From: a virus
Taxonomy: Duplodnaviria > Heunggongvirae > Uroviricota > Caudoviricetes
DNA length: 57,324 bases
Direction: 5' to 3' (one strand)
Virus record (IMG/VR): IMGVR_UViG_2778261526_000005
Under the pieces are notes generated by a model. It saw nothing but the letters and a program-made list of their open reading frames with translations. It was not told where the DNA came from and searched no databases. Every line of letters starts with the position of its first letter. Positions within the stretch are counted from its first letter, which is position 1. Below, one piece after another: positions 5,229 to 55,950 of the stretch. The position numbers and the translations under genes were made by a program.

Positions 5229-5813
5229 TTACTCCGGATATTTAAAAATTACGTAGGTATGCGACGGGCAGAGTTTGTTAAGCACGCACTCGATAACGGT
5301 GTCCCCCCAGATACGCAGTGCGGAATCGCAGGGATCGCCACATGTCATCCAGGTGGTGTTGGTGGCAGCTGGCATATTGACCTGCCAGTAATACCGCCAT
5401 TCCGGCGCATTCACCGCGTCAGTACAGGCCGATGAGCAGGTGAACGTGCTTTTGTCGTATCGCGTGATGGTGGCATCTGGTCTGCCCAGGGCAGCAAGCT
5501 GCGCAAGGTAAAAATCCTCATTGATGCCACCCGCCAGGTTAACCTTCGCATCCAGCCGTTGCTGACGCTGGCGAAGGGTCTGCGTCCCTGCCGGAATACA
5601 TTCATCCGGCAGGCCGCACAGACGCTCCCAGCGGTTTATCAGTTCGGTGGTGGTGCGCGGATCCAGCTCCCGCATCAGGGCATCCGCACGCTGATGAGCA
5701 CGGGTTAATGACGGTGCCGCACCGGCAATCGCCGGATCGCTGGCTGACCACGCCGGACCGGGGGGCAACAGTGCCGACAACAGACGGATGTAATCATCGT
5801 TTGTCACGTCCAT
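5229..5813 (-). CDS. Phage tail protein, Mu gp48/YmfQ-like (DUF2313)
   Basis: Position between baseplate J and tail fibre; family recalled from Mu-like prophages. Confidence 0.55.
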
Positions 5814-25858: not shown

Positions 25859-25867
25859 TAACCAAGC

Positions 25868-26329
25868 ATGGAGGACACAATGAGAGAATTAGCCACTTTT
25901 CTCTGGAAATGCGTCCTCTGGATTCTGTTGACCTATGCAGCGACAAAACTGTTTAAACCGATGAAGCATGCTGACGTACTCACAACAGCGGGGGTGCTCT
26001 CGACTATATCAGGCATCCTGTTTGGTTTTGTTCTGGCTGCAATATCTATATTTAGTAGTGCAAACAGCGATAAGGAAGGAGCAATTAATGCCCTTAAGCA
26101 AAACAACGTGTTACCAACTCTGGTAAATAGATTACTTTCAACAGGGTTAACTCTCATCGTCGCATGTATATTTCCATTGATAGCGATGTTTCTACCTGAT
26201 GATGTTATTGTTGCGGGCAAACCTATTGATTTCCTGTTCATACTGTTAGGCTTATCCTCCCTTATAATTTCGCTATATACCTTCGGAAGGTGTTGGTTAG
26301 TGTTACGAAAAATCTTCCCCCACTTGTGA
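25868..26329 (+). CDS. Hypothetical 4-TM membrane protein, second gene of cassette (start likely MRELATF at 25880)
   Basis: Four hydrophobic helices; GGAGG RBS before the internal Met. Confidence 0.5.
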   Translation: MEDTMRELATFLWKCVLWILLTYAATKLFKPMKHADVLTTAGVLSTISGILFGFVLAAISIFSSANSDKEGAINALKQNNVLPTLVNRLLSTGLTLIVACIFPLIAMFLPDDVIVAGKPIDFLFILLGLSSLIISLYTFGRCWLVLRKIFPHL

Positions 26330-35521: not shown

Positions 35522-35740
35522 GTGGAGAAACATATGCTGAACCTCGATTGTGTTCCAATCTCAACTTATTGCAAAGAAACTGGCGAAACTCCTGAAGCAA
35601 TAAACAAACGTGTACAGCGCGGTGTTTGGCGTGAAGGTGTTCAGGTTTTAAAGGTTGAAGGCGTTAAGGAGAGGTGGATTGATCTTAGTGAGGTTGCAAA
35701 ATGGGCCAGACAAAACTGCTCAAACTACCGCGCGGCGTAA
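35522..35740 (+). CDS. xis: Excisionase-like protein
   Basis: 72 aa directly upstream of and overlapping int. Confidence 0.5.
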   Translation: MEKHMLNLDCVPISTYCKETGETPEAINKRVQRGVWREGVQVLKVEGVKERWIDLSEVAKWARQNCSNYRAA

Positions 35741-36897
35741 CAATCAGGAAACACCGCCAGGGCGAAACGATCAATATAACTTTCACCTACAAAGGAGTTA
35801 AATGTCGTGAGCCTCTTTCCAATCTGGAAGTAACACCAAAGAACATTAAATACGCCGAGCGCACACTCGGCGAAATTCATAATAAGATCGAAAGGGGAAC
35901 ATTCATTTATGCGGAATATTTTCCCCGTTCTGCTCGTTTGAAAATTTTTGGTAATGCTGCTGCAGGCAAAACGGTAAAAATGTACCTGGACGAATACCTT
36001 GAAATCTGCGAAACGAGAAAACTCTCACCCTCAACGATTGGTGGTTATAAAAAATGCCGTAGTGCGTTAGCCTCACTCCACATTTGCCCTGCAAGTGAAT
36101 TAACACCAGCAATCCTGAAAGCGTGGATTCAAAGCCAGAAAACGACCTTAAAAACAATTCGCAACCAGTTATCTTTCCTGCGGTCAGCACTTGATGAAGC
36201 CGTAACCGATGGGATACTTCAAATTAACCCCGTATCGTTGGTAACTGCTTCGCGCTACCAAAGTGATAAGTCAGAAGCAGAAAGCTGCTACGTGGTTGAT
36301 CCGCTATCACCAACAGAAGTTGATGCATTACTAGCAGCAGCCGGAAACAAACAATGGGAGAATCTGTTCCGGTTCGCTATACATACAGGCCTGCGTAGTT
36401 CTGAATTATGTGCCCTTAGATGGCGTGATATCGACTTTGTTGGAAAAACTGCCCATGTCCAGAGTGCAAGTGTTGTCGGTGTTATCAAAGGAACAAAGAC
36501 AAAGGCCGGTACTCGTAAAGTTGAACTGACAGAAGAGGCTATGTTGGCGCTGATAAATCAGAAGCCATTTACATTCATGAAGGATGCTACTGTCTTTGAA
36601 GACCCAAAGACCAATAAGCCTTGGGCAAGTGCTGATGCAATCAGGAAAAAAGCATGGGTGCCAACATTACGGAAAGCAGGTATTCGATACAGAAATCCAT
36701 ATCAAACTAGGCATACATTCGCCACCAGCCATATCAGCCGAGGAGCAAATCTGTTTTGGCTTGCAGCTCAAATGGGGCATAAAGGGCCGGAAATGCTTTT
36801 CAGGCATTATGGTTCGTATCTCGTAGACTATGATGGCAAGACAGCTTGTAAGGACCAAGTATCAAAAAATCCGGAGAACATGAAAATTGAGAAGTAA
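35701..36897 (+). CDS. int: Tyrosine integrase (lambda Int family)
   Basis: Catalytic region with RHTFAT and HYGSY (His/Arg/Tyr). Confidence 0.9.
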   Translation: MGQTKLLKLPRGVTIRKHRQGETINITFTYKGVKCREPLSNLEVTPKNIKYAERTLGEIHNKIERGTFIYAEYFPRSARLKIFGNAAAGKTVKMYLDEYLEICETRKLSPSTIGGYKKCRSALASLHICPASELTPAILKAWIQSQKTTLKTIRNQLSFLRSALDEAVTDGILQINPVSLVTASRYQSDKSEAESCYVVDPLSPTEVDALLAAAGNKQWENLFRFAIHTGLRSSELCALRWRDIDFVGKTAHVQSASVVGVIKGTKTKAGTRKVELTEEAMLALINQKPFTFMKDATVFEDPKTNKPWASADAIRKKAWVPTLRKAGIRYRNPYQTRHTFATSHISRGANLFWLAAQMGHKGPEMLFRHYGSYLVDYDGKTACKDQVSKNPENMKIEK

Positions 36898-37087: not shown

Positions 37088-38353
37088 ATGTTGATTGAGT
37101 TTACAGTACAAAACTATAAATCTATTTCAGAGAAACAAACACTGAGTTTAGTTGCATCAAAACTTAACGATTTGCCTAATAATCTGTTCAGTATTGATGA
37201 ACCTAAATCTCTTGAATTGCTTAAAAGTGCTGTGATTTATGGCCCTAATGCTGCCGGAAAATCAAACATTATTAACGCTATTACAACTATGGCTGAACTT
37301 ATTGTCCGGTCTGCTACAGGTTATAAAAGTGGTGATAAACTTGATATCACGCCTTTTAGACTAGACTCAAAGAAGATTAATCAACCATCTGAATTTGAAA
37401 TTAACTTTATTTCCGAAGGCATCAGATACCAGTATGGTTTTTCTGCAACAGAAGATTTTATTCACGACGAATGGTTATTTGCATTCCCCAAAGGCAGACC
37501 ACAAAAATGGTTTTTACGTCTATGGGATGAAGAAAAACAAACCCATGAATGGGAGTTGGGGCCATCGTTGACAGGAGAAAAACAAACATGGTTGAAATCA
37601 ACCAGGCCTAATGCGCTCTTTCTTTCTACAGCGGTACAATTAAACAGTGTACAACTAAAACCTGTATACGATTGGTTTTATTACAAAGTTAAATTTACTG
37701 AATTAACAGGTTGGGATAGTGATTACAGTGCAAAGCAATGCTTAAATGATAAGAAAGATGAGATTCTCAATTTTTTAAAAGCTGCCGATGTAGGTATTGA
37801 TGACATTCATGTAACAAAAGAAAAATTCAATCCCAATGCTCTTCCTGATGATATGCCTGCAGCCATCAAGGAACTAGTGATTAAGAATATGCAAGGCAAG
37901 GAAGAATATGTCATTAAAACACTTCATAATAATGAGGATGGAGAGCCAATTCCATTCGATTTAAAAGATGAATCGCATGGAACTAGAAAAATCTTTAGTT
38001 TCGCGGGTCCCTTATCACATTCACTCGAGACAGGAAACATCCTGTTTATTGATGAATTAAATGATAACTTACACCCCAAATTAGTTGAGTTTATTGTAGG
38101 TTTATTTCACGATAAAAATATCAATAAGAATGGTGCCCAGTTAATCTTTACAACTCATGAGACGTCTATTTTAAATCAAGATGTTTTCAGACGAGATCAG
38201 ATTTGGTTTGTAGAAAAAGACAATTCAAAGCAAACAAATCTTTTCCCACTTACGGATTTTAGTCCAAGAAAAGGAAGGGAGAATTTAGAAGCTTCTTATC
38301 TTGACGGTAGATATGGGGCTTTACCACTCATTGGGAAATGGGAGAGATATTAA
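37088..38353 (+). CDS. AAA/ABC-type ATPase (AbiLi-like, OLD-family ATPase module)
   Basis: Walker A GPNAAGKSN; Walker B ILFIDELNDNLHP. Confidence 0.65.
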   Translation: MLIEFTVQNYKSISEKQTLSLVASKLNDLPNNLFSIDEPKSLELLKSAVIYGPNAAGKSNIINAITTMAELIVRSATGYKSGDKLDITPFRLDSKKINQPSEFEINFISEGIRYQYGFSATEDFIHDEWLFAFPKGRPQKWFLRLWDEEKQTHEWELGPSLTGEKQTWLKSTRPNALFLSTAVQLNSVQLKPVYDWFYYKVKFTELTGWDSDYSAKQCLNDKKDEILNFLKAADVGIDDIHVTKEKFNPNALPDDMPAAIKELVIKNMQGKEEYVIKTLHNNEDGEPIPFDLKDESHGTRKIFSFAGPLSHSLETGNILFIDELNDNLHPKLVEFIVGLFHDKNINKNGAQLIFTTHETSILNQDVFRRDQIWFVEKDNSKQTNLFPLTDFSPRKGRENLEASYLDGRYGALPLIGKWERY

Positions 38354-39039
38354 TGGGAAGCGAAGATCTGTTCAAAAAAAGAAAGGCTCGGCGTAATAAT
38401 GAATTCAAACGAGTTAGTAAAGCACGAGCTCAAATGAAGAAAATTCTTATCGTCTGTGAGGGAGAGAAGACTGAGCCCGCATATTTTACAGATTTTATAA
38501 AACATTGCCGTATAAGCACGGCAAGCATAGTTGAGATTTCTGGAGAGTGCGGCTCAAGCCCTATGAATGTGGTATCTTGGGCAAAAGAAAAATATAATAC
38601 GGAAAAAAAAAGGAGCGACCCTTATGATAAGGTTTATTGTGTCTTTGATAGAGACGCTCACCCTAACTATGATGAAGCTCTTAGCAGGATTAATTCCTTA
38701 AATCCAAAAGGGATTTTTGTTGCTATAACTTCCATACCATGTTTCGAGTACTGGCTGATACTACATTTTGGATACACCCGAAAATCATTTTCACCTCAGA
38801 AAGGCAAAAGTGAAGGCGCACAAATGCTAGCTGAGTTAAAAAAATACATGCCAGATTATGAGAAAAAGGCATCAGGTGTATTTAATAAATTGCAAGATCG
38901 GCTCGATACGGCATTAATCAATGCTAAAAGAGTCGAAGATGCCGCCAAAAAAGACGGTTCGATAAATCCTTCAACTAAAGTTGGCGCTTTGATTACAGAT
39001 CTAATTAACATTCGTGATGACTTTGAAAATGAGAAGTAA
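38338..39039 (+). CDS. RloB-like (TOPRIM-like) protein, AbiLii-like
   Basis: ILIVCEGEKTEPAYF matches the RloB motif as recalled; overlaps the ATPase gene. Confidence 0.6.
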   Translation: MGEILMGSEDLFKKRKARRNNEFKRVSKARAQMKKILIVCEGEKTEPAYFTDFIKHCRISTASIVEISGECGSSPMNVVSWAKEKYNTEKKRSDPYDKVYCVFDRDAHPNYDEALSRINSLNPKGIFVAITSIPCFEYWLILHFGYTRKSFSPQKGKSEGAQMLAELKKYMPDYEKKASGVFNKLQDRLDTALINAKRVEDAAKKDGSINPSTKVGALITDLINIRDDFENEK

Positions 39040-39165
39040 AAATAACATGTCATGATGTAGCGACGGCAGCATGTTTAAGTTCAAATGGCAAAGTGTACGC
39101 GAAGTATACGCGGCTCAAAAACAATAGAAAAAACGTATATTTTACAAAAGATTATATAAATTTTG

Positions 39166-39195
39166 ACGCGGGTTCAACTCCCGCCAGTTCCACCA
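39166..39195 (+). other. tmRNA (ssrA) 3'-end copy, about 30 nt: att core of P4-like element
   Basis: gacgcgggttcaactcccgccagttccacca matches the ssrA 3' end (T-arm, acceptor, CCA) with one mismatch; upstream is not ssrA-like. Confidence 0.7.
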
Positions 39196-39379: not shown

Positions 39380-40579
39380 GTGGCACGGACAACACGCCCC
39401 CTGACCAACACCGAAGTTCTGCGCGCGAAAGCGTTAGAGAAGGATCTAACGCTGCATGATGGCGATGGGCTTTTCCTGATAGTGAAAACTAGCGGCAAGA
39501 AACTCTGGCGCTTTCGCTATCAACGCCCAGCAACAAAACAGCGGACTATGATGGGACTTGGTGCTTTTCCTGCCCTTTCTCTTGCTGATGCCCGAGGGTT
39601 AAGAGCAGATTACCTTGCCCTATTAGCCAACGGAATCGACCCGCAAATTCAAGCTGAAGTTGCAGAGGAACAGCAGCAAATCGCTCTGGACAGTATTTTT
39701 TCGACGGTCGCCGCTAACTGGTTCCAGCTCAAAAGCAAAAGCGTTACCCATGATTACGCTAAAGATATATGGCGTTCACTGGAAAAAGACGTATTCCCCA
39801 CCATCGGGGAGATCCCTGTCCAGCAAATCAAAGCCCGAACACTGGTTGAAGCCCTTGAACCGATCAAAGCTCGTGGGGCGCTGGAGACGGTGCGCCGGTT
39901 GGTGCAGCGTGTTAACGAGATAATGATTTATGCCGTAAATACTGGTCTTATTGATGCCAATCCAGCATCAGGCATTGGAATGGCCTTTGAGAAGCCAAAA
40001 AAACAAAATATGCCTACGTTGCGCCCAGAAGAATTGCCTATGCTGATGCGTTCTCTCGTCATGTCAAATTTGTCTGTTCCGACTCGCTGCCTCATTGAGT
40101 GGCAACTCCTGACTCTAGTTCGTCCTTCTGAGGCTTCCGGTGCTAGGTGGGCTGAGCTCGATCTCGATGCAAAGCTCTGGACTATCCCAACTGAACGAAT
40201 GAAGGCTAAGCGGGAACACATAGTCCCTCTATCTCCTCAGGCATTAGAGATTCTTGATGTGATGAAGCTAATCAGTGCCCATCGTGAACATGTTTTCCCG
40301 AGTCGGAATGACCCAAAGCAACCAATGAATAGCCAGACGGCAAATGCTGCTTTAAAAAGGATTGGATTTGGTGGTAGATTGGTTGCTCATGGATTGCGTT
40401 CAATTGCCAGCACCGCATTAAATGAAGCGGGTTTTAATGCAGATGTAATTGAGGCTGCTCTTGCACATAGTGATAAAAATGAAGTGCGCAGAGCATATAA
40501 TCGTTCAACTTACCTTGAGCAACGAATAGGACTTATGAATTGGTGGGGCCAAAAAGTGTACGAGCGCAATCAATATTAG
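39380..40579 (+). CDS. Tyrosine integrase, P4/CP4-57 IntA-like (GTG start)
   Basis: Closely resembles E. coli IntA as recalled; AGGAG RBS. Confidence 0.9.
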   Translation: MARTTRPLTNTEVLRAKALEKDLTLHDGDGLFLIVKTSGKKLWRFRYQRPATKQRTMMGLGAFPALSLADARGLRADYLALLANGIDPQIQAEVAEEQQQIALDSIFSTVAANWFQLKSKSVTHDYAKDIWRSLEKDVFPTIGEIPVQQIKARTLVEALEPIKARGALETVRRLVQRVNEIMIYAVNTGLIDANPASGIGMAFEKPKKQNMPTLRPEELPMLMRSLVMSNLSVPTRCLIEWQLLTLVRPSEASGARWAELDLDAKLWTIPTERMKAKREHIVPLSPQALEILDVMKLISAHREHVFPSRNDPKQPMNSQTANAALKRIGFGGRLVAHGLRSIASTALNEAGFNADVIEAALAHSDKNEVRRAYNRSTYLEQRIGLMNWWGQKVYERNQY

Positions 40580-40608
40580 TTAACTTGTTATACATGGAGA
40601 TATAGTTC

Positions 40609-41067
40609 ATGGAGAATAATCTAGATAATTTATGTTATGAATTCTTTAGAGAGTTTTCACGTTATGAATATTGCCTTAAGGCATGTGGACTTCATCATAA
40701 AATAAAAGATGCTAAAGCGAACTGGGATGAGTATGCAAAGCAAGTTTCTGAAATCATAAATAACACAACTGATCCAGAGCTAATTGCTGCTATCACCTAC
40801 TTTAAAGAACACCCACCCAAAAAACAAATCATAGAAGATGACTCTTTAGTTTGGGATGATTCTTTACCACAAGAAAAAGATTTAGCAAAATTTCTTTTTT
40901 TGTTAATCCGCCGTGTAAGAAACAATCTTTTTCACGGAGGAAAATTTAACGGGAAATGGTTTGAACCTGAACGTAGTGAGGCGTTACTGCAACATGGCCT
41001 TGTTATTTTGAGGCATTGCGGCACAAGGCATAGTGAAGTAAGCAAAGCCTATTCTGGAATAGCCTGA
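40609..41067 (+). CDS. Hypothetical 152-aa protein in int-psu hotspot
   Basis: AT-rich ORF convergent with the helicase gene. Confidence 0.45.
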   Translation: MENNLDNLCYEFFREFSRYEYCLKACGLHHKIKDAKANWDEYAKQVSEIINNTTDPELIAAITYFKEHPPKKQIIEDDSLVWDDSLPQEKDLAKFLFLLIRRVRNNLFHGGKFNGKWFEPERSEALLQHGLVILRHCGTRHSEVSKAYSGIA

Positions 41068-41159
41068 GCGGTGTTATAAAAGAGAAGTTTTTGTTACTGG
41101 AAGAATGATAAAATTCAAAAACTTCTCTATTGATTGTTTAAAAAATCGTCTAAATAAGA

Positions 41160-43742
41160 CTATTGTACCCAAAAGTTACGAAATATATTATGTATTTCGT
41201 TTTGAACTAATTGTGGCAGTTCTTCCATGTCAACTTTATTGTCCTTAATCCAATTAATGCATTCTTCCTCATCTAAACTATCATTAGGAATAAGCTCTGA
41301 AATCATTACAGCAGCAGTTCTTGAAAAGCCAAGCCCTATTAGTGAAATCTGAGTTTTTAAACTTACACCCAGTTCTAAATAAACACCGATATCTTCAACA
41401 TCTTTTGCTAAGTCTGTGCGATCTATCGAAAGATAAAAGCTTTTTAATAAATCATTATAACATCCTAAAAGCCTTGGAGCTTGATAGCGAGCGATCTCTT
41501 CAACATCCTTCATAACCCCTCGTATTAAAGTCGCTTCTTTGAAAACAATATTTTTCTTTTTGTTATATCTTATTCTATCCGAGATCAATCTTGCTAGGGG
41601 ATAACCTTTCATCCACTTGGAAACTAACAAGGCCTGTACGTAAGCTCCTTTTGAATTATAACCTAGCTTCTTACTCAGAGTATCACTAATTCTAGAGAAT
41701 GCGGATACATATGAATCTAACGCATCATTACTACCAGGTTCAGAAAGCAGTAATCTCTCTACAGGTTTGTTTGTATCCCGCGAAAATCTATCCCAAAGGT
41801 TTTGCATTAAAAGCGGGCTTATACCAGGATGCCGCACAACCAATTCGTGTGGAAAAGTTAAAGAATCAAAAACATCAAATATTGCTTCATTTAAAACATC
41901 GATATTTTTTATATTGTACTTTTCCATGTAAGGATTATTATCCAAGCCATTATAAAAATAAAATGATGAACATAAATAACTAAATAGACTCTGGAGATTA
42001 GGATTCCGCTCAGACATACCAAAATGATGCTCTGAAAAAATATAGGAAACCAACTTATCCATGTCATGGGAAATAGCATCCGTGGCGCGAGTTATAAATA
42101 TATTTTTTTTGGTTTTTGGAGGCTCTCCATTCCAAATTTTTTCATTGTCGCTATCGATGCAGATGACATTACCTTGGAATTCTTTTCCCCAACGACCAGC
42201 TCTGCCAGCAAGATTCCAAAAATCCTCTTCTCGCATCGGGGTTGAATTACCCTTTTTAGGGCCTCTTATAAAAATATTTTTACAAGCCATGTTTACGCCC
42301 TCAACTAAAGTTGAGGTACAAATTAAAAAATCAATCTTACCTTTACTAAACAATCGTTCAATCTCGCCCTTTATTATTAAAGGCATGTTGCCATAATGAA
42401 AAGCGACTCTCTTTTTTAGAGTGCGATTTAATGCGAAATTTTTATGTATAATTGTCTCACTAAGCTCAACGAGAGCTAAAATTTCTTCATCCTCAGTCTC
42501 ATTTTCTATACTTGCAGATATTAGCTTGGAAGTAGATTCTGCTTCAGCGGCTCCATTTACGTAAACTACGTTACCAGAAGCCCCCTTACCTAAACAAAGA
42601 GCTACAAAAGGCAATCTTTTACTTTCAGGAGATGGTGCATTTTCTAAAGAAAAGTTTCCTAACTCGCGTTTTTCACCGTTTGCAAAATAATACATCAACC
42701 AATCTTTGGTCTTGCGTGGTTTTTGTTCTACCCATATTAAATTTTGATTAACTGTAACATAGTCACTTTTTATAGTTCTTTTGTTTTTTAATATTGGAGC
42801 ATCACTGAGCAATATTTCAGGATTTAAGGTGAAAGGACTTGCAAAGATAACTTTTGAATCAGGGTTATTTAGACAAGTCAGTTCAATTACATGTTGAAGA
42901 ATAACACCTCTTCCACCATCACCGATCTTGTGTGCTTCATCAACAACTAAGACGTCTATCTTTGGAATTTGTGAGAAATGATTGTAGAATAAATTTAATC
43001 TTTCCTGTGTAAATATGAAGACATTAGATTTTTCGCTCTGGTATACATTACTCAATGGTAGTGTCTGAATATTAACTATATTTGTTAAATTAGGATCCAA
43101 ACGTTTTTGCAACTCAGAATATACTTCTGAAATCAATGCCCTTGTTGGTACGATATAAATAACTAAGCAATTCTTATTTCTTTTTACAAACTGCTCCACC
43201 CAAGATTCCAGGATAAATGATTTTCCTACAGAGGTAGGAGCAGAGACACTAACCCATGAGTTTTCTTGTACCGCATCCCAAAACTCTGATTGAAACCTAT
43301 TAGCATAAATATGCTTATCAGCATCTATTTCAATTGTATATAGAATTTTTCTTTTAGTTAGTTCTAACTGAGCCTTTAAGGGTAATCTTTCTTCGAAATC
43401 AGGGTTAAGATACCCCCTATTTTCAGCAAGTTGTATTGCTGGATTATTAGATAATGAATCAAGAATTAATGCAGCACTATCTTTTCTTGCTTCACTTTTT
43501 TCATTCAATAAGCAATACTGTGCAATCCTTAAGGCTGCATCTTGGCATTTCTCATCACTTGAGAAAGCCAAAGAACTAGCACATGTTAAAAGATAGCCGA
43601 CATCCTCAGAACTAATCTGTGGGATTACATCTGATTTTAACTCTGGAAATTGATCTTTTATCGAGTTAGCGACTAATGCCTGATATTTTCTTAAGAATCC
43701 TTGATTCTTAATCAACCACCCAGATAAATCTCGCAACGACAT
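41160..43742 (-). CDS. Superfamily II helicase, Hachiman HamB-like
   Basis: Motif I SAPTSVGKSF, motif II VVDEAHKI, motif VI-like AGRAGRWG. Confidence 0.6.
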   Translation of the reverse strand: MSLRDLSGWLIKNQGFLRKYQALVANSIKDQFPELKSDVIPQISSEDVGYLLTCASSLAFSSDEKCQDAALRIAQYCLLNEKSEARKDSAALILDSLSNNPAIQLAENRGYLNPDFEERLPLKAQLELTKRKILYTIEIDADKHIYANRFQSEFWDAVQENSWVSVSAPTSVGKSFILESWVEQFVKRNKNCLVIYIVPTRALISEVYSELQKRLDPNLTNIVNIQTLPLSNVYQSEKSNVFIFTQERLNLFYNHFSQIPKIDVLVVDEAHKIGDGGRGVILQHVIELTCLNNPDSKVIFASPFTLNPEILLSDAPILKNKRTIKSDYVTVNQNLIWVEQKPRKTKDWLMYYFANGEKRELGNFSLENAPSPESKRLPFVALCLGKGASGNVVYVNGAAEAESTSKLISASIENETEDEEILALVELSETIIHKNFALNRTLKKRVAFHYGNMPLIIKGEIERLFSKGKIDFLICTSTLVEGVNMACKNIFIRGPKKGNSTPMREEDFWNLAGRAGRWGKEFQGNVICIDSDNEKIWNGEPPKTKKNIFITRATDAISHDMDKLVSYIFSEHHFGMSERNPNLQSLFSYLCSSFYFYNGLDNNPYMEKYNIKNIDVLNEAIFDVFDSLTFPHELVVRHPGISPLLMQNLWDRFSRDTNKPVERLLLSEPGSNDALDSYVSAFSRISDTLSKKLGYNSKGAYVQALLVSKWMKGYPLARLISDRIRYNKKKNIVFKEATLIRGVMKDVEEIARYQAPRLLGCYNDLLKSFYLSIDRTDLAKDVEDIGVYLELGVSLKTQISLIGLGFSRTAAVMISELIPNDSLDEEECINWIKDNKVDMEELPQLVQNEIHNIFRNFWVQ

Positions 43743-43743
43743 T

Positions 43744-44685
43744 TCAACTCTCCAATGCTTTAATTAAACTAGCCCTAAATGCTTTTACTGAAGGAAAAGG
43801 AAGAATAAAAACATGCATAGCAAAGCGATCAAGTTTTTTATTAACTATACCACCTTGCACACTAGTTGACCATTTCCCGACTTTAGTATTAATCAAAGCA
43901 ACTAGTTCACTGATATCAATTGAACTGGGCCCTTGTGGATAATCTTTAAGATCAAACCCAACTAAGCATATTCCTCTGTATTCCAATTTATTAAAATCCG
44001 GGCTATCAGGATCTAAGAATCTTTTCAACGCTTGTTCTAGTTCTATATCATCAACATTTAAGTGCGACTCCAGCAACTGCATATCACGTGTCTCAGCGCC
44101 TTCTATTCCCATAGAACTTTGAAGTAATGGAGCTATACTATCCATACACTCAGAAATACCTTTGCTCAGATTGGAATAGAGTTTAGACTCGCCCCAGTAT
44201 AAACATAATTTTTTATTATCTTTATCTACGCCTATATGTATTCCATCTGCACCATGGTAATGCATTTGAGAACTCGTTTTCAGGCTCATTTTGCAAATAA
44301 TTTGTGGAAATCTAAGGAATTGCTCTGCAAATAAAAAAAGAATAAATTCACCGCCTTCGCCACTATTTGCAAGCCTAGTAAATAATTTTTTTGCTTGATT
44401 TGCTAATTTTGTTATTTTCGCTGTTGATTGTGTTTCATTAAAATATTGCACTGCCTCATTGATTTTTTTCCTTGGAATAGCATAATCAACTACTTTATCG
44501 TTCAAGAATTGGATTAACGCGTCTACCCGAGGACGTCCATTGCCATCAAGATTAAGGCAATGAAAATGACAAGTTGCATTTGTATTTTCAATCAATGAAT
44601 TAACTTTAACTTCACTAAAATAACTATTTAGTGTTTGACCATCATCTCTAATCAGATTTTCAAGCGCGACATGCAGTGCATCCAT
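43744..44685 (-). CDS. HamA-like protein (possible PD-(D/E)xK nuclease)
   Basis: 313 aa immediately upstream of the helicase; D...ESK-type motif (GVDKD...WGESKL). Confidence 0.45.
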   Translation of the reverse strand: MDALHVALENLIRDDGQTLNSYFSEVKVNSLIENTNATCHFHCLNLDGNGRPRVDALIQFLNDKVVDYAIPRKKINEAVQYFNETQSTAKITKLANQAKKLFTRLANSGEGGEFILFLFAEQFLRFPQIICKMSLKTSSQMHYHGADGIHIGVDKDNKKLCLYWGESKLYSNLSKGISECMDSIAPLLQSSMGIEGAETRDMQLLESHLNVDDIELEQALKRFLDPDSPDFNKLEYRGICLVGFDLKDYPQGPSSIDISELVALINTKVGKWSTSVQGGIVNKKLDRFAMHVFILPFPSVKAFRASLIKALES

Positions 44686-45110
44686 GAGTAGGTCCTTGCA
44701 TATTTTATTTTCCTCATCATTTGCAATATATACTTATTTCAATAGCTTGCAACATTTTTACTCGACAATGATACTTACACCACACTCGCTGCTTAAAATC
44801 ATTGTTATCGCTTTAACGTGATAAACGATTCTTTCAATCAGGTACTCATTGAAAGTTAAAAGTTACTTTGACCATACACAGCGTGCGCTGCCCCGCCCGC
44901 CTGCCCGCTTCACTTAACAGACTGGTTTTCATGCACCCCGTAAATCGTCTCAGAAGCCACCACACAAGGGCTTTCGCGTCAAAAATGGCGCATGAGACTC
45001 ATGCGTTTTCATGCGCTATAGATATGCACTCATACGCCTTCAGGCCAGCCAGGGAAAAGGCGTAAAAAATCCCGGTACTGGACCGGGACTACGTGGGCGT
45101 ATTTTGCTAA

Positions 45111-45383
45111 TCAGACAGGAATTAGCTGACGGCTTGACAGCTTTGACGCGGAGCCATAGCGGTTGAGAGTTTGCTGTTGTTTTTCTGGCATTTGTTCTTT
45201 GTCTGATTCCTGTTCATTGCGCCAAGGCTTCATAATTATCGTATCCACGCTTTCCAGAGCGGTAAATGTGCAGGAACATTCCAGATTCTGGCACTGATAC
45301 CATGAGCGTTTAACCGATGGAGCTTCATAGGCGCTGGTTCTGGCGTGAGCGACCGTCCCACATTCAGGACACTTCAGGGCCAT
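45111..45383 (-). CDS. ogr: Ogr/Delta-family zinc-finger late activator
   Basis: CPECG...HARTS...YQCQNLECSCTF matches Ogr pattern. Confidence 0.7.
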   Translation of the reverse strand: MALKCPECGTVAHARTSAYEAPSVKRSWYQCQNLECSCTFTALESVDTIIMKPWRNEQESDKEQMPEKQQQTLNRYGSASKLSSRQLIPV

Positions 45384-45384
45384 A

Positions 45385-45939
45385 TCAGTACCCTCCTTTT
45401 TCATTAAGTCGGTTAAGGCGGGCCAGGAAAACTTTATGTTGTGCCGGGGTGAAACTGGTTGAAGCATCAGCGTACATTGATGCATCCACCGTTAATCCGG
45501 TTTCGTCGATAATGCTCTTGTATGCTGCTGAAATTACCGGAGTACGCACTTCCGTTTGTCGGGCTACAGCGGTTCGTAATATTTTCATTGCCGCCTCAAG
45601 CCCGTATGGAGCGCAAAGAAAAGGAGCCAGTGCGTCAGTGAGTGCATCACCATGCTCGCTCATGAAGTTTTCCGTTGCGCTTGTAACACAACTCTCCAGC
45701 ACAATCTGGTGAGCATAAAGACCATCCCGTGCAGCACAGTTAATCTGCCATTCGAGGACAGCAAGACGCTCACGAAGCTCCTCAAGCTGGCTGGCATATG
45801 CTGCCGGTTTTTCTTCAGTATTCAGCAGAGCCGCCAGACGAAGCTGGTAGGTACTTTGCGTATTACGTAGTGTCAGCCAGCTTTTTATCGCCGAGCGGTA
45901 ATCGTTGAGAGCTTCCTGAGTAATGGTTCCGGCATTCAT
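45385..45939 (-). CDS. psu: Polarity suppression protein Psu
   Basis: Recalled P4 Psu segments conserved (ALAP.L, FTPAQ). Confidence 0.7.
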   Translation of the reverse strand: MNAGTITQEALNDYRSAIKSWLTLRNTQSTYQLRLAALLNTEEKPAAYASQLEELRERLAVLEWQINCAARDGLYAHQIVLESCVTSATENFMSEHGDALTDALAPFLCAPYGLEAAMKILRTAVARQTEVRTPVISAAYKSIIDETGLTVDASMYADASTSFTPAQHKVFLARLNRLNEKGGY

Positions 45940-46721
45940 TTCTTCTCGCCCCCTTTAACCATGTCACGCTGTTTAAGCATCCGTGAACGCGCTGCAGGGC
46001 TGGGGGATTGTCTGGCATCCTGGATGGCTTTATCGTCCGCATAAATGCTGATCCCCGGCAGGGTAATATCATCCTTTGAAGATACGTTACAGGACAGTGC
46101 CGGAGTGGTGAGTTGCTCGCTGATAAATTGCTTCAGCACACTTTCGGGGTCGTTTACGGTATGAACTACACCGATAACAGCAGAAGCGCTTCGGCCCAGA
46201 GTCATTTTCAACAGTCCAAGGATCTGAATAAGTTTCTGGCCGTGTTCCTTCATAAACTCATTCCAGAGCCACACTGCATGAGTTTCAATCAGGCGATTAT
46301 GTTCGCTGATGTAGTGGTTTGCAGCATCCGCAGTTTTCCAGGGCAGGAATTCATTTTCTGCCACCTGAGCTGCCAGCAAATCTTCGAACTCATCCAGTGT
46401 TTCGCGTCCGAGGGCGATTTCTGCCCGCAGTTTTTTCATGCGTGGTGTCATATTTCCCTGATTCTCACGAAACAGGTTTCGCCATTCATCATTAAGCGCC
46501 TGCGTTTCCGTTTTTGTATCTTCCTGACGTTTACGGATAGTTTCAATCATTGCAGCAGCTTCAGTTTGTTTTCGCCGTTCTTCCTGCCAGACAGCTTTTG
46601 CTGCCTTAACTTTTTCCACCGCTTCGCGAATTTTCGGCGGGAGGGAGGATGTAATGTTTGCATCAGAGATCTGGTTAACAGTAGTCATGAATGCTCCGGT
46701 AGTGTTTTGTTGTCGTGTCAA
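45936..46721 (-). CDS. Putative Sid-like capsid size determination protein (start possibly 46688)
   Basis: Coiled-coil-rich protein first in the late operon. Confidence 0.4.
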   Translation of the reverse strand: MTRQQNTTGAFMTTVNQISDANITSSLPPKIREAVEKVKAAKAVWQEERRKQTEAAAMIETIRKRQEDTKTETQALNDEWRNLFRENQGNMTPRMKKLRAEIALGRETLDEFEDLLAAQVAENEFLPWKTADAANHYISEHNRLIETHAVWLWNEFMKEHGQKLIQILGLLKMTLGRSASAVIGVVHTVNDPESVLKQFISEQLTTPALSCNVSSKDDITLPGISIYADDKAIQDARQSPSPAARSRMLKQRDMVKGGEKK

Positions 46722-47601: not shown

Positions 47602-47862
47602 ATGCATGATATTTCTGTTTCTGCGCCAGCTCCGGCTGCGCCATTATTTCCTGTGCTGAACCAGCATGAGCGATTTTTACGTCTTCCCGAGGTGATGCAT
47701 TTATGCGGCTTGTCCCGCTCAACTATATACGACCTGATAAGCCGCGATGCTTTCCCGAAGCAGATCCCGCTTGGTGGTAAAAATGTTGCCTGGGCACAGT
47801 CAGAGGTAAGCGCATGGATGGCGGATCGTATAAGTGCCCGCGGACGGGGATGTGATGCATAA
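47602..47862 (+). CDS. alpA: AlpA-family HTH regulator
   Basis: [21 protein letters not shown] resembles AlpA. Confidence 0.6.
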
Positions 47863-48221
47863 TGATGCCTGAACGCATTAATCCCCATTTTTCTGGCTTG
47901 CATCCTGCAGTCATTTCCAGGTATAGTTTTTCCGCTGCCGCAAAATCGGCAGCCGGAATTGGCGTTCCGCGAAACTCAATGGCGACACCAGACGCGCCAA
48001 GCGTCTTTTTTTTCGTCGAAGCTCTGGCACACCCATTTTCCAGGCTGTGGTGTTTATGCGTACACCGTGGTTCTTTCGAGATAATGGCAGTCCGGGCGGG
48101 GCAGCCTTCGGGCTGGCCGGTATCCATTGAGGCCGGTTACGCCAACCCCGTTCGGGCTGCCACCAGTGAAATTGGCGTTTCCGGTGGTAGCAATAACCGC
48201 TACTCAATGGAGGCTGCCATC

Positions 48222-48637: not shown

Positions 48638-48957
48638 AATCACGCACTCTTCCCCTCTCACTTCGGCTGGCGTTATATCGCCGCGCGGTTGCCTGCGCCT
48701 GGCTGAGTATCTGCCATCAGCACAACCGCCACCTGCAGCTCACTCTGGATGAAATTGAAACCGCCATTGCCCGTGAGCTTGAAGGTTTTTATCTGCGACA
48801 GCACGGGCAAACAAAAGGCATGGAAATCGCCTGCGCCCTGCTTTCAGACCTGATGGAATCCGGTCCTCTAATGTCCTGCCCCGCACTCTCCCAGCTCGGA
48901 ATAGCCGTAATGGATGAGTTATGCGTCCGTCACATTATAAAGCCGGTTTTACACTGA
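48634..48957 (+). CDS. Hypothetical protein upstream of primase
   Basis: ATGA-coupled ORF. Confidence 0.4.
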
Positions 48958-48971
48958 GGGAGAACTGCATC

Positions 48972-51305
48972 ATGTCAGGAATGAAAGTCAGTCAGGCCGT
49001 GAAGGCTGCCCGCGGTCACTGGGCGCGGATTTTGCCAGCGCTGGGTATGAACATACTGAAAAATCGCCATCAGCCTTGTCCGGTCTGCGCCGGTAAAGAT
49101 CGTTTTCGCTTCGACGATCTGGAAGGACGTGGAACATGGTTCTGCAACCAGTGCGGGGCTGGGGACGGTTTAGCGCTTGTCAGCAAGGTACTGAATGTGG
49201 ATATCAGTGAAGCAGCAGACAGGATACATGGACTGACACATAGTCTGTCTTCAGCCTCTTCTGGAGTCTGGACGTCAACCGCAGATACAGATGGCGGGAA
49301 ACAGGCGGCAGCAGCACTTGCCGCGCGACTACTGCAAGCCTCGCGTGAATCTGCCGGAAATACTTATCTTACACATAAAGGTTTCCCGGAGCATATTTGC
49401 CATGAGCTGACTTCAGGTCATAAAACCGGTGGGGTGATGTTCCACCCCGGTGATTTGATCGTCCCGCTCTATAACGCTGACGGGGAACTGGTGAATATTC
49501 AGCTTATCAGTGGCAATGGTAGCAAGTGTTTTCTTAAAGGAGGTCAGGTTAAGGAGGCCTATCATCTGATAGAAGGGGGCGGGAGTTCTGTAAGAAGGAT
49601 GTGGATTGCGGAAGGTTACGCCACGGCGCTTACCATTCGTCATCTGACAGGAGAAGCCGTCATGGTGGCATTTTCGTCGGTCAACTTTCTTTCTCTGGCC
49701 AGCGTTGCCCATAACAAGTATCCGGGATATCAGTTAATTATTGCAGCGGACCGCGATCTGAATGGTTCAGGCCAGAACAGGGCTGAAACTGCTGCAAAAG
49801 CGTGTCAGTGTGACATTGTGCTGCCACCGGTTTTTGGTGACTGGAATGATGCGCTTACCCAATACGGAGAGGAATCCACCCGGAAGGCAATTCTTGAGGC
49901 TTTGAAGCCACATAACGCCAGTCCTTTCGACACAATGAGTGAAGCAGAATTCACAGCGATGAGTGTCAGCGAAAAAGCTCAGAGGGTTCGGGAGCATTAC
50001 AGGGATGCACTGGCGGTTGATCCGAACGGGCAGCTTTTATCCCGCTACGAGTCTGGAGCGTGGAAAGTGATTTCTCAGTCAGATTTTGCCCGAGATGTCG
50101 CAGCCCTTTTCCAGCGCCTCGGTGCACCGTTTTCCTCAGGAAAAATTGCTTCACTGGTGGAAACATTAAAGTTAATTGTTCCGCAGCAGCAAAATCCGGC
50201 ACGTCATCTGATCGGTTTTCGTAATGGCGTCCTCGATACGCGAACAGGGCTGTTTAGTCCGCACTGTAAAGAGAACTGGCTGCGTACCCTGTGTGAAGTC
50301 GATTTCACGCCACCGGTAGAGGGGGAAACGCTTGAAACTCATGCCCCGGCATTCTGGCGCTGGCTGGACCGGGCTGCCGGACACAAGCCAGAAAAACGCG
50401 ACATTATTCTTGCGGCGTTATTTATGGTGCTGGCGAATCGCTATGACTGGCAGCTCTTTCTGGAAGTGACTGGCCCTGGTGGAAGTGGCAAAAGTATTCT
50501 GGCTGAAATTGCGACCATGCTTGCTGGAGAGGATAACGCCACCTCTGCGACCATTGAAACGCTGGAGTCCCCGCGAGAACGTGCGGCTCTGATAGGTTTT
50601 TCTCTTATTCGCCTGCCTGATCAGGAGAAGTGGAGCGGCGACGGCGCCGGGCTTAAGGCTATAACTGGTGGCGATGCGGTATCGGTGGACCCCAAATATC
50701 AGAATGCTTATTCAACACATATTCCGGCGGTTATCCTGGCCGTAAATAATAATCCTATGCGCTTCACTGATCGCAGTGGTGGTGTGTCCCGCAGGAGAGT
50801 TATTCTGCATTTTCCTGAGCAGATAGCACCGGAAGAACGCGATCCGCAGCTGAAAGATAAAATTGCACGAGAACTGGCTGTGATTGTTCGCCAGCTCATG
50901 CAGCGTTTCAGCGATCCGATGAGCGCCAGAACATTGCTTCAGTCGCAGCAGAATTCTGATGAGGCTCTCACCATCAAGCGTGATGCTGATCCAGCATTTG
51001 ATTTTTGTGGCTATCTTGAGGCATTACCTGACACCAACGGCATGTTTATGGGGAACGCCAATATTGTCCCACGCCAGCCACGTACCTACCTTTACCATGC
51101 CTACCTCGTATACATGGAGGCTAATGGATATAAAAACACCCTGAGTCTTACGATGTTTGGCAAAGGGTTGCCAGTCATGCTGAAGGAGTACGGGCTACAT
51201 TATGAGAAACGGCGAACTAATCAGGGAATGCAGACTAACCTCACTTTAAAAGAGGAAAGTAATGCAGACTGGCTACCCAAGTGCGATGAGCCAACAATCA
51301 AATAA
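48972..51305 (+). CDS. Primase/helicase, P4 alpha-like
   Basis: Zinc-binding CPVCAGKDRF...CNQCG, TOPRIM-like middle, Walker A GPGGSGKS. Confidence 0.8.
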   Translation: MSGMKVSQAVKAARGHWARILPALGMNILKNRHQPCPVCAGKDRFRFDDLEGRGTWFCNQCGAGDGLALVSKVLNVDISEAADRIHGLTHSLSSASSGVWTSTADTDGGKQAAAALAARLLQASRESAGNTYLTHKGFPEHICHELTSGHKTGGVMFHPGDLIVPLYNADGELVNIQLISGNGSKCFLKGGQVKEAYHLIEGGGSSVRRMWIAEGYATALTIRHLTGEAVMVAFSSVNFLSLASVAHNKYPGYQLIIAADRDLNGSGQNRAETAAKACQCDIVLPPVFGDWNDALTQYGEESTRKAILEALKPHNASPFDTMSEAEFTAMSVSEKAQRVREHYRDALAVDPNGQLLSRYESGAWKVISQSDFARDVAALFQRLGAPFSSGKIASLVETLKLIVPQQQNPARHLIGFRNGVLDTRTGLFSPHCKENWLRTLCEVDFTPPVEGETLETHAPAFWRWLDRAAGHKPEKRDIILAALFMVLANRYDWQLFLEVTGPGGSGKSILAEIATMLAGEDNATSATIETLESPRERAALIGFSLIRLPDQEKWSGDGAGLKAITGGDAVSVDPKYQNAYSTHIPAVILAVNNNPMRFTDRSGGVSRRRVILHFPEQIAPEERDPQLKDKIARELAVIVRQLMQRFSDPMSARTLLQSQQNSDEALTIKRDADPAFDFCGYLEALPDTNGMFMGNANIVPRQPRTYLYHAYLVYMEANGYKNTLSLTMFGKGLPVMLKEYGLHYEKRRTNQGMQTNLTLKEESNADWLPKCDEPTIK

Positions 51306-55044: not shown

Positions 55045-55376
55045 CATCCTCTGAAAAGTGAATACTGAGTAGCGTTTAAGCGACCTTAGCTCTGCTGCAA
55101 CATCAGCCCACAGGCACCAGACCAGGGGATTCATCCTGAAGAGACAGCGCAAGTGTATTGTGTTCACCGCTCATCAAAGACATCATGATGAAATGATGAT
55201 ATTCCACATAAGAAAGAAGCATTTTTTAAACGCAGTGCGCTGAAGTATGGTTGGATAAAAAAGTCAATCTATTCAGGGAATACGGGGGTATTCTTTTCTT
55301 TCGACAATCAGGTCGTCGGCAAAATAAAATGATTTACATAATCGTTTCTGATGAATATCTTCTGCTCACATAAAAA

Positions 55377-55616
55377 TCACACAATAACTTTGAGATCGCA
55401 GATTCTTTTACTTTTACAGCATTCGTCCCCCCATTGTTGGGCAAATATAGATTGGGCCAGAGCACGAAAGTTAATACCACGTTTGCACAGCTCCTCCAAC
55501 AGCACGACAAGATGCCACATACTGCGCCCCAGTCGGTTCGGTTTACAGACTACCCGTGCGTCCACCGCCGATAATGTCCTGAGCAGTTTTTTCAGTCCGG
55601 ACCTCCTGCCACGGTT
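55377..55616 (-). pseudogene. Serine recombinase fragment lacking catalytic N-terminus
   Basis: VVCKPNRLGRSMWHLVVLLEELCKRGINFRAL resembles resolvase/invertase core; stop immediately upstream. Confidence 0.55.
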
Positions 55617-55619
55617 TTA

Positions 55620-55690
55620 CGTTGAAGAGGTAACCCTGAGCACGCAGTTCATCAGTCAGGCGTGGTGTACCGTAACCCTATTATTGATGG
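55620..55690 (-). mobile_element. Short IS3-family (IS911-like) transposase fragment
   Basis: Encodes GYGTPRLTDELRAQGYLFNVK, recalled as IS911 OrfB-like; flanked by stops. Confidence 0.3.
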
Positions 55691-55762
55691 GTAAGATCAA
55701 AAAAACTTTCAGGCAGCTAAGGAAAGTTGAACCAGACATTAGAATAAATATTTCAACCAATT

Positions 55763-55785
55763 ACAGCACCAATTCAGACACCGCC
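55763..55785 (+). repeat. Second degenerate ssrA 3'-end-like repeat
   Basis: ttcagacaccgccagctcaacaa shares 17 of 23 positions with ssrA 3' end. Confidence 0.4.
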
Positions 55786-55950
55786 AGCTCAACAAATAAA
55801 TCAAGGGGTTACGTGAAAGCGTAGCCCCTTTTTCTTTGGTAGTGGCAGCAAAATGGTTGTAGTGTAAAAAATAATCCCGTTTAATCAATCAATAATACAT
55901 ATTGTTTCAATCTACGTTATTATCTCTTTGTAAAAAGAGCCATTTATTAA

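What the first reader, a model, noticed from the sequence alone, without database searches (positions are those of the whole stretch)
41160..44685. Hachiman-like pair in the P4 int-psu hotspot
A 313-aa protein with a possible PD-(D/E)xK motif is followed with a 1-nt gap by an 860-aa superfamily II helicase. This matches the HamA/HamB layout, and the location between integrase and psu is the known variable cargo site of P4-like satellites.
Basis: partly seen in the sequence, partly recalled or inferred. Interest (0 to 1): 0.55.

Follow-up and report, generated by a model that had tools for sequence, protein, structure and literature searches.

The report
Hachiman defence pair in P4-like satellite
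The two genes are an ordinary, intact type I Hachiman anti-phage system (HamA nuclease plus HamB helicase) carried as cargo in the known defence hotspot of a P4-like phage satellite in E. coli, and both the system and its location are already described.

Summary
The observation and the interpretation both hold. On the minus strand, a 313-aa ORF (43744..44685) is followed after one base by an 860-aa ORF (41160..43742).

- **HamA:** the first ORF matches Pfam HamA/DUF1837 (E 2.9e-61) and PADLOC HamA1 end to end (E 9.5e-136). It keeps an invariant D147...E166-x-K168 nuclease motif. Its predicted fold finds solved HamA chains as its only significant PDB matches.
- **HamB:** the second ORF matches PADLOC HamB1 end to end (1135 bits). 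It has intact SF2 motifs (GKS, PTRAL, DEAH, GRAGR).
- **Type:** there is no HamC/DUF3223, no Cap4 fusion and no protease, so this is type I (I-A).
- **Location:** the pair lies in a low-GC variable segment (about 40558..44879) of a P4-like satellite. The satellite carries int, sid-psu-delta, alpA, CI/C4 RNA and alpha primase, and is bounded by an ssrA 3'-end att copy.
- **Variable cargo:** related satellite backbones carry other cargo at the same place.
- **Prior knowledge:** twenty of 5,426 complete E. coli genomes hold the same genes, already annotated as HamA/DEAD-box helicase. Hachiman in the P4 hotspot is published.

Function here is inferred by homology and was not tested. Interest is low. 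A convergent 152-aa HEPN-like gene in the same hotspot is the only loose end, and it looks independent of Hachiman.

The parts
43744..44685 (-). hamA: 313-aa DUF1837 PD-(D/E)xK-type nuclease, the effector of Hachiman type I-A
   Evidence: Pfam PF08878 E 2.9e-61. PADLOC HamA1 E 9.5e-136, full length. D147/E166/K168 invariant. AF2 model pLDDT 86. Foldseek top three PDB hits are HamA chains 8zue_A, 8vxy_A and 8vx9_A, prob 1.0.
41160..43742 (-). hamB: 860-aa Ski2-like SF2 helicase, the sensor/regulator of Hachiman
   Evidence: PADLOC HamB1 PDLC00186, 1135 bits, full length. Pfam DEAD + Helicase_C + ResIII. Motifs GKS173, PTRAL199, DEAH268, TSTLVEGVN476 and GRAGR. Closest solved chain is 9wh1_B, a HamB of a trypsin-MBL Hachiman, E 3.9e-58 over residues 115-815.
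44725..44752 (-). Promoter-like site (TTGCAA-16-TATATT) upstream of hamA, inside the cargo segment
   Evidence: Consensus scan. The number of such sites in the region is no higher than in shuffles, so this is only a candidate.
40558..44879 (.). Variable cargo segment of the P4-like hotspot (orf152 + hamB + hamA + upstream region). hamAB is 34.7% GC against about 48-51% in the satellite backbone
   Evidence: Backbone matches in other E. coli genomes end at query positions ~1549-1558 and restart at ~5880-5891 of window:39000-47000. GC values.
40609..41067 (+). orf152: small HEPN-like protein (invariant RxRNNLFHGGKFN), convergent with hamB. It shares the hotspot but is probably a separate gene
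39380..40579 (+). P4-type tyrosine integrase, the left border of the hotspot
   Evidence: Pfam Arm-DNA-bind_3 + Phage_int_M + Phage_integrase.
39159..39195 (+). Copy of the ssrA (tmRNA) 3' end, the att site at the left end of the satellite
   Evidence: Exact match to the ssrA 3'-end pattern at 39168-39195. Hits annotated ssrA start at query position 160, which is window 39159. In strain M114 the homologous integrase directly follows intact ssrA. No complete tmRNA lies in the window.
45111..45383 (-). delta (Ogr/Delta zinc-finger activator), the right border of the hotspot
   Evidence: Pfam Ogr_Delta E 3.1e-16. PGAP coordinates in strain 190.
45385..45939 (-). psu (polarity suppression protein)
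   Evidence: Pfam Psu E 2e-35.
45936..46721 (-). sid-like Psu paralogue
   Evidence: Pfam Psu E 1.1e-07. phrog_6165 E 6e-94.
47934..48167 (+). isrK and C4/CI antisense RNA, the P4 immunity RNA region
   Evidence: Rfam RF01394 76.7 bits and RF01695 84.6 bits.
48921..51305 (+). alpha-type primase-helicase of the satellite
   Evidence: ORF. PGAP name 'primase-helicase zinc-binding domain-containing protein' in the identical locus.

Best explanation
This is an intact two-gene type I (I-A) Hachiman anti-phage system, hamA followed by hamB, carried as horizontally acquired cargo in the integrase-to-psu/delta hotspot of a P4-like satellite integrated at an ssrA-type att site in E. coli. By homology to characterised Hachiman systems, HamA (a DUF1837, PD-(D/E)xK-type DNase with D147/E166/K168) and HamB (a Ski2-like SF2 helicase) form a heterodimer that surveys DNA. 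HamB holds HamA in check on intact duplex. When HamB loads onto a free 3' single-stranded end or other damage or replication intermediates produced during infection, ATP binding and hydrolysis switch on HamA-dependent non-specific DNA degradation. That destroys phage and host DNA, which is abortive infection. Shown here: gene integrity, family membership, catalytic motifs, fold and genomic context. Inferred: complex formation, the trigger, the DNase activity and the phage range of this particular copy.
For: HamA: Pfam PF08878 E 2.9e-61; PADLOC HamA1 450 bits, full length; invariant D147, E166, K168; AF2 model pLDDT 86, pTM 0.88. The only PDB matches with E <= 0.001 are solved HamA chains 8zue_A, 8vxy_A and 8vx9_A. 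HamB: PADLOC HamB1 1135 bits, full length; DEAD/Helicase_C/ResIII; motifs I, Ia, II, V and VI intact; 9wh1_B HamB E 3.9e-58. The genes are 1 nt apart and co-oriented, with an RBS inside hamA. None of the five hotspot and upstream-flank proteins scanned matched a HamC model, and no Pfam DUF3223 hit occurred among the ten proteins scanned. Context: int, psu, delta, sid-like, C4 RNA and alpha; variable segment 40558-44879; different cargo on a related backbone; the same subfamily between psu and int of Klebsiella P4-like elements next to smpB. Identical genes occur in 20 of 5,426 complete E. coli genomes, annotated HamA/DUF1837 + DEAD/DEAH helicase. Mechanism comes from PMC12278908 (ECOR31 HamAB; E138A/K140A and D431A abolish defence; DNA damage activates) and PMC11914072 (type I-A DEC14B; E150A/K152A and Walker A mutants abolish defence; HamAB degrades DNA non-specifically). 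Hachiman in P4 hotspots: PMC13586616, PMC11718236, and 'DUF1837 + DEAD/Helicase_C/ResIII' rows in the supplementary table of PMC9122126.
Against: No experiment exists on this copy. Sequence similarity to the biochemically studied ECOR31 pair is very low: a HamA profile does not reach 8vx9_A at E <= 1, and HamB matches 8vx9_B only over residues 430-528. Details such as release versus in-complex activation of HamA may therefore differ, and published models already disagree on this point (PMC12278908 against PMC11914072 and PMC13064477). Structural similarity of HamA to solved HamA chains is moderate (TM 0.47-0.57). The promoter call is no better than chance. In three genomes ISKpn26 splits hamB, which shows the system can be lost or may be costly.
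Confidence: 0.93

Rival explanations
1. A three-gene variant in which the convergent 152-aa HEPN-like protein (40609..41067) is a functional partner of HamAB, for example a second RNase effector or a regulator, rather than independent cargo.
For: It lies inside the same variable segment and is present in all annotated identical loci inspected. A more distant version of the cassette (HamA 84% identical, orf152 67% identical) keeps the same int-orf152-hamB-hamA arrangement. Its GC content is similarly low (35.9% against 34.7%).
Against: It is on the opposite strand. Its homologues occur without any Hachiman genes in Pantoea, in an E. coli icd/e14-type integrase slot and in a Rheinheimera island. 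The same HamAB subfamily sits in Klebsiella P4-like hotspots without it. Characterised Hachiman systems need only HamA and HamB (PMC12278908, PMC11914072).
Confidence: 0.07
2. A different Hachiman class: type II (with HamC), type I-B/AbpAB-like (Cap4 nuclease fused to an inactive DUF1837), or the trypsin-MBL Hachiman whose HamB is the closest solved structure.
For: The second-best PADLOC models are HamA2 (355 bits) and HamB2 (943 bits). The best PDB match of HamB is 9wh1_B, from the trypsin-MBL Hachiman study.
Against: The HamA1 and HamB1 models score higher (450 and 1135 bits). There is no DUF3223/HamC hit in any neighbour, and PMC8565338 defines type II by HamC. HamA is 313 aa with only the DUF1837 domain and retains D-ExK, whereas types I-B/C/D have an extra N-terminal domain and lack the motif (PMC11914072). 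The ORFs inside the variable segment (orf152, hamB, hamA) and its backbone neighbours (int, delta, psu, sid-like) gave no protease or MBL hits in Pfam. The 9wh1_A HamA chain is 528 aa and matches our HamA profile only at E 0.069.
Confidence: 0.03
3. A decayed or silent remnant: the genes are intact by chance, but are not expressed or not active in this host.
For: The promoter prediction is not above chance. IS-disrupted copies exist. The very low GC content suggests foreign origin and possible silencing (inference).
Against: Both long ORFs are uninterrupted. All catalytic and helicase motifs are conserved. The sequence is >=99.9% identical in 20 genomes from unrelated sources. Homologues at 43-84% identity keep full length, which indicates purifying selection.
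Confidence: 0.05

Closest known systems
Hachiman type I-A, E. coli DEC14B HamAB (PMC11914072)
   Same: Two genes, hamA then hamB. HamA consists of DUF1837 only and has a conserved (D/E)xK active site. HamB is an SF2 helicase with an essential Walker A. In that system the HamAB complex degrades DNA non-specifically and protects against T4, T7 and other dsDNA phages.
   Different: It is a different sequence variant: catalytic E/K are at 150/152 there and 166/168 here, and Walker A is at 272-274 there and 173-175 here. No direct alignment to that protein could be made with the tools. The activity of this copy is untested.
E. coli ECOR31 HamAB (PDB 8VX9/8VXA/8VXC/8VXY; PMC12278908)
   Same: The same architecture and the same HamA fold (Foldseek prob 1.0). 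Both have the D-E(x)K motif, a Ski2-like helicase partner, and the DNA-damage/3'-end sensing abortive-infection model.
   Different: ECOR31 HamB is 1174 aa against 860 aa here, and is alignable only over the RecA2 region (E 5e-12). HamA shares 13-15% identity in structural alignment and is undetectable by sequence profile. Motif II is DEGH there and DEAH here.
HamB of the trypsin-MBL Hachiman (PDB 9WH1; bioRxiv 10.1101/2025.09.03.673762)
   Same: It is the closest solved helicase, E 3.9e-58 over residues 115-815, and of similar length (853 aa).
   Different: That system has a 528-aa HamA chain and trypsin and MBL components (study abstract). None of these is present here.
Defence hotspot of P4-like satellites (PMC9122126; PMC13586616; PMC11718236)
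   Same: Cargo sits between the integrase and the psu-delta-sid module. The cargo differs between otherwise similar satellites. DUF1837 + helicase/Hachiman is explicitly listed among P4 cargos.
   Different: Nothing essential differs. In this element delta, not psu, abuts the hotspot, and a small HEPN-like gene shares the slot.

Membership tests
Hachiman type I (I-A) | HamA carries the DUF1837/HamA domain | tested here: met
   Pfam PF08878 E 2.9e-61, profile 2-230 of 230. PADLOC HamA1 PDLC00163 E 9.5e-136, residues 2-312 on model 3-312 of 314.
Hachiman type I (I-A) | HamA keeps the catalytic D...E-x-K residues of a PD-(D/E)xK nuclease | tested here: met
   D147, E166 and K168 are invariant in 30 homologues. 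The motif was defined in PMC12278908 and PMC11914072. The mapping to E138/K140 of ECOR31 is by motif and fold, not by a residue-level alignment.
Hachiman type I (I-A) | HamA adopts the HamA/restriction-endonuclease-like fold | tested here: met
   AF2 model pLDDT 86, pTM 0.88. Foldseek PDB: 8zue_A, 8vxy_A and 8vx9_A at E 4.5e-06 to 5.1e-05, prob 1.0, TM 0.47-0.57. The next hits are restriction enzymes at E > 0.02.
Hachiman type I (I-A) | HamA has no additional N-terminal effector domain (this separates I-A from I-B/C/D) | tested here: met
   The protein is 313 aa and HamA is its only Pfam domain. It is collinear with 312-318-aa homologues.
Hachiman type I (I-A) | HamB is an SF2 (Ski2-like) helicase with intact ATPase/helicase motifs | tested here: met
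   PADLOC HamB1 1135 bits, full length. Pfam DEAD, Helicase_C and ResIII. Motifs I, Ia, II, V and VI present. PDB hits include Hel308, Brr2, Ski2 and Pol theta helicases.
Hachiman type I (I-A) | HamB has the N-terminal helical domain that binds HamA, and the two proteins form a heterodimer | tested here: inconclusive
   The HamB1 model aligns from residue 1, so the N-terminal region is homologous to other HamBs. No structure of HamB or of the complex was predicted, and binding cannot be tested here.
Hachiman type I (I-A) | hamA and hamB are adjacent and co-oriented in one operon | tested here: met
   1-nt spacer, same strand, RBS inside the hamA 3' end.
Hachiman type I (I-A) | Protects against phage through nuclease- and ATPase-dependent DNA degradation | not testable with these tools
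   This needs plaque assays and biochemistry.
Hachiman type II | A HamC (DUF3223) gene next to hamAB | tested here: not met
   No DUF3223 or HamC hit for orf152 or any other neighbour. The definition comes from PMC8565338.
Hachiman type I-B (AbpAB-like) | Cap4-type nuclease domain fused N-terminally to a catalytically dead DUF1837 | tested here: not met
   There is no extra domain, and the D-ExK motif is present.
Trypsin-MBL Hachiman | A trypsin-like protease and an MBL-fold effector associated with HamAB | tested here: not met
   The variable segment holds only orf152, hamB and hamA. None of them has a protease or MBL hit.
P4-like satellite defence hotspot | P4 core genes are present (int, psu, delta, sid, alpA, alpha, CI RNA) | tested here: met
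P4-like satellite defence hotspot | The cargo lies between int and the psu-delta-sid module and varies between related satellites | tested here: met
   Homology breakpoints at ~40558 and ~44879. Strain M114 has a related backbone (90.6% identity over the integrase-to-sid match) with Dcm + HEPN-like nuclease + DUF262. Klebsiella P4-like elements carry hamAB in the same slot.
P4-like satellite defence hotspot | A cos packaging site adjoins the hotspot | tested here: inconclusive
   The 19-nt P2/P4 cos sequence, as I recalled it from memory, has no match with <=3 mismatches in the window and none in the hotspot region with <=5. A G+C-rich tract at 44883-44905 marks the start of the conserved backbone but was not verified as cos.

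The most novel reading that the evidence does not exclude
The most novel reading not excluded has two parts. First, the hotspot cassette may be a functional unit of Hachiman plus the convergent minimal HEPN-like protein (orf152), which would give a DNA-degrading and a putative RNA-targeting arm in one satellite cargo. Second, because hamAB is co-directional with sid-psu-delta, its expression may be boosted by Psu anti-termination when a P2-type helper activates the satellite. Neither idea is supported beyond co-location and orientation.
Probability: 0.07. Interest if true: 0.4.

Novelty: already known. Interest (0 to 1): 0.1.

Why it matters
It adds little new. It is a clean, correctly read example of a satellite-borne defence system. 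It shows that the first-stage reader can recognise Hachiman and the P4 hotspot from raw sequence. This subfamily is far in sequence from the two biochemically studied E. coli Hachiman pairs, so it could serve as a compact (313 + 860 aa) comparison system for the open question of whether HamA acts after release from HamB or within the complex. The window as a whole shows stacking of defence cargo on tandem mobile elements at ssrA: PD-T4-3 and AbiL on a prophage, and Hachiman plus a HEPN-like gene on the satellite.

Tried and rejected
- **Direct sequence link of HamA to solved HamA chains.** phmmer at E up to 10 found nothing. A 30-sequence profile reached only 9wh1_A at E 0.069. The link had to be made by predicted fold.
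- **cos site.** Searching with the recalled 19-nt P2/P4 and 186 cos sequences found no convincing match. My by-eye match at 44883-44901 did not hold up, with 6 mismatches without a gap.
- **Second att copy.** I looked for a second ssrA-like att copy at the right end of the satellite, but only one exact copy exists in the window. A 23-nt direct repeat (39306 and 51528) may be an integrase arm site and was not pursued.
- **orf152 as HamC or another known defence protein.** Rejected. The only PADLOC hit is Cas8c at E 0.0093, which is noise. There are no Pfam or NCBIfam hits, and Foldseek against the PDB gives nothing significant.
- **hamAB in other collections.** There is no match at megablast level in the phage or plasmid collections.
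- **Published tests of this exact pair.** The RefSeq protein accessions of the identical locus are not in the searchable literature. I could not establish whether ECOR04 or ECOR28 Hachiman (PMC12278908) is this variant.
Full report
**Observation.** ORF listing shows a 313-aa ORF at 43744..44685 and an 860-aa ORF at 41160..43742, both on the minus strand. On the coding strand the junction reads GGAGAG-TTGA-A-ATG. Exactly one base separates the stop of the first gene from the start of the second, and a Shine-Dalgarno-like GGAG lies within the end of the first gene. This layout is typical of translational coupling. The pair is 34.7% G+C, against 48-51% for the flanking satellite genes and 48.3% for the whole window, as expected for imported cargo.

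**The first protein is HamA.**
- It matches Pfam HamA (PF08878, formerly DUF1837) at E 2.9e-61 over the whole profile.
- It matches PADLOC model HamA1 PDLC00163 at E 9.5e-136 over residues 2-312.
- A database search returned 973 homologues, all with PF08878 among those listed.
- In an alignment of 30 homologues down to 43% identity, D147, E166 and K168 (GADG...YWGESK) are invariant, as are E110 and E113. This is the D-E(x)K signature that Tuck et al. and Cui et al. identified as the HamA active site (PMC12278908, PMC11914072).
- Sequence searches could not reach the solved HamA chains, so I predicted the structure instead (pLDDT 86, pTM 0.88).
- Foldseek against the PDB returned three matches with E <= 0.001, and all three are HamA chains of solved Hachiman complexes: 8zue_A, 8vxy_A and 8vx9_A, with probability 1.0 and TM 0.47-0.57. 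Type II restriction endonucleases followed far behind.

**The second protein is HamB.**
- PADLOC HamB1 PDLC00186 scores 1135 bits, aligning residues 1-856 to model positions 1-860 of 864. The next 13 hits are all HamB models.
- Pfam finds DEAD, Helicase_C and ResIII.
- Motifs I (GKS 173-175), Ia (PTRAL), II (DEAH 268-271), V and VI are intact.
- Against PDB sequences, the best match is 9wh1_B (E 3.9e-58, residues 115-815). This is the HamB of a trypsin-MBL Hachiman. Then come Ski2-like helicases (ASCC3, Brr2, Hel308, Ski2, Mtr4, Pol theta). ECOR31 HamB (8vx9_B) matches only over the RecA2 region.

**Subtype.**
- Type II Hachiman is defined by a DUF3223 HamC gene (PMC8565338), and none is present.
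- Types I-B to I-D have an extra N-terminal domain on HamA and lack the catalytic motif (PMC11914072). Here HamA is DUF1837-only and has the motif.
- No protease or MBL gene is present.
- This is therefore type I, subtype I-A, which is the majority class.

**Context.**
- The pair lies in a P4-like satellite. Its parts are:
  - a P4-type integrase at 39380..40579 (Arm-DNA-bind_3, Phage_int_M, Phage_integrase);
  - delta at 45111..45383;
  - psu at 45385..45939;
  - a sid-like Psu paralogue at 45936..46721;
  - an AlpA-like HTH at 47602..47862;
  - isrK and the C4/CI antisense RNA at 47934-48167;
  - an alpha-type primase at 48921..51305.
- A copy of the ssrA 3' end at 39159-39195 marks the left att site. 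In strain M114 the homologous integrase directly follows intact ssrA and smpB.
- Megablast of 39000-47000 against 5,426 complete E. coli genomes shows backbone homology ending near 40558 and resuming near 44879 in more than a thousand genomes. Only 18-20 genomes carry the segment in between.
- M114 carries Dcm + HEPN-like nuclease + DUF262 in that slot.
- Klebsiella P4-like elements at smpB/ssrA carry a 63%-identical HamA, with its 859-aa helicase partner, between psu and int.
- This is the hotspot of Rousset et al. (PMC9122126). Their supplementary table already lists 'DUF1837 + DEAD/Helicase_C/ResIII' cargos. Later papers name Hachiman as a P4-specific cargo (PMC13586616) and show it in psu-linked loci (PMC11718236).
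- RefSeq annotates the identical genes as 'HamA C-terminal domain-containing protein' or 'Hachiman antiphage defense system protein HamA', and as 'DEAD/DEAH box helicase'.

**Mechanism (inferred by homology).**
- HamA and HamB form a heterodimer.
- HamB binds and scans duplex DNA and keeps the HamA nuclease in check.
- Entry of a 3' single-stranded end, or DNA damage produced during infection, triggers HamB ATPase activity and HamA-dependent indiscriminate DNA degradation.
- This kills the infected cell before phage release (PMC12278908).
- Other studies find that HamA is inactive alone and cleaves only within the HamAB complex, stimulated by ATP binding (PMC11914072, PMC13064477). Which of these applies to this divergent subfamily is unknown.
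- A promoter-like site lies upstream of hamA inside the cargo (44752-44725), and a terminator-like hairpin follows delta (45005-44989). Both come from a consensus scan that is not enriched over shuffles.
- hamAB is co-directional with sid-psu-delta, so read-through under Psu anti-termination is conceivable, as speculated in PMC11718236. It is untested.

**The extra gene.**
- A 152-aa ORF (40609..41067, plus strand, convergent with hamB) shares the variable segment.
- It has no Pfam, NCBIfam or credible PADLOC hit.
- It has 696 homologues with an invariant RxRNNLFHGGKFN block, which is an Rx4H HEPN-type motif.
- Its confident model (pLDDT 89) has no significant Foldseek match in the PDB.
- Homologues occur in other islands without Hachiman, and Klebsiella hamAB lacks it. 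I therefore treat it as separate cargo. One more distant cassette keeps the same arrangement.

**Verdict.** The feature is an already known system in an already known place. It is intact and probably functional, but it has not been tested in this form.

Noticed in passing
[not shown]
   Followed up: partly
window 37088..39039 (+), with integrase 35701..36897 (+): An AbiL-type pair lies between a prophage integrase and the satellite's att copy: AbiLi (AAA_21 ATPase, PADLOC E 4.2e-101) plus AbiLii (RloB, Pfam E 1.1e-39). In strain 190 the same slot holds a different gene, a 265-aa hypothetical. The prophage therefore has its own integrase-adjacent cargo slot.
   Followed up: partly
window 1785..2609 (+): A 274-aa protein matches PADLOC PD-T4-3 over the full length (E 2.7e-140). 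It lies near the far end of the prophage, and is a third known defence gene in the window.
   Followed up: no
window 39159..39195 (+) and 1..~39150: A tailed prophage (terminase, tail tape-measure, LexA-like repressor, integrase) and the P4-like satellite sit in tandem, separated by a copy of the ssrA 3' end. No intact tmRNA gene is in the window. The right-hand att of the satellite was not identified. A 23-nt direct repeat occurs at 39306 and 51528.
   Followed up: partly
window 45111..46721 (-): The gene order is sid-like, psu, delta, so delta abuts the hotspot. The Klebsiella P4-like elements fetched here have sid, delta, psu. E. coli M114 has the same order as the window.
   Followed up: no
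L010 (NZ_CP081706.1, strain AH04) 1501..6225; also AH02 and CT01: In three otherwise identical loci an IS5-family ISKpn26 element is inserted in hamB. It splits hamB into a 140-aa fragment and a 738-aa fragment, while hamA stays intact. This is natural inactivation of the helicase gene.
   Followed up: partly
window 24917..26329 (+): Two plus-strand ORFs (313 and 153 aa) are embedded among minus-strand prophage genes. They have no Pfam or PADLOC hits and fall in PHROG families of unknown function (phrog_7651, phrog_8552). This is a moron-like insert.
   Followed up: no
window 47934..48167 (+): There are Rfam matches to isrK (76.7 bits) and the C4/CI antisense RNA (84.6 bits). They overlap an ORF that PGAP annotates as an Icd-like cell division inhibitor. 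This is typical of the P4 immunity region.
   Followed up: no
window 52138..57324 (-): AIDA-repeat autotransporter adhesin genes (ypjA/ehaD-like) flank the satellite on the right. The 1009-aa ORF has 12 AIDA repeats. In strain 190 the corresponding gene is annotated as a pseudogene.
   Followed up: no
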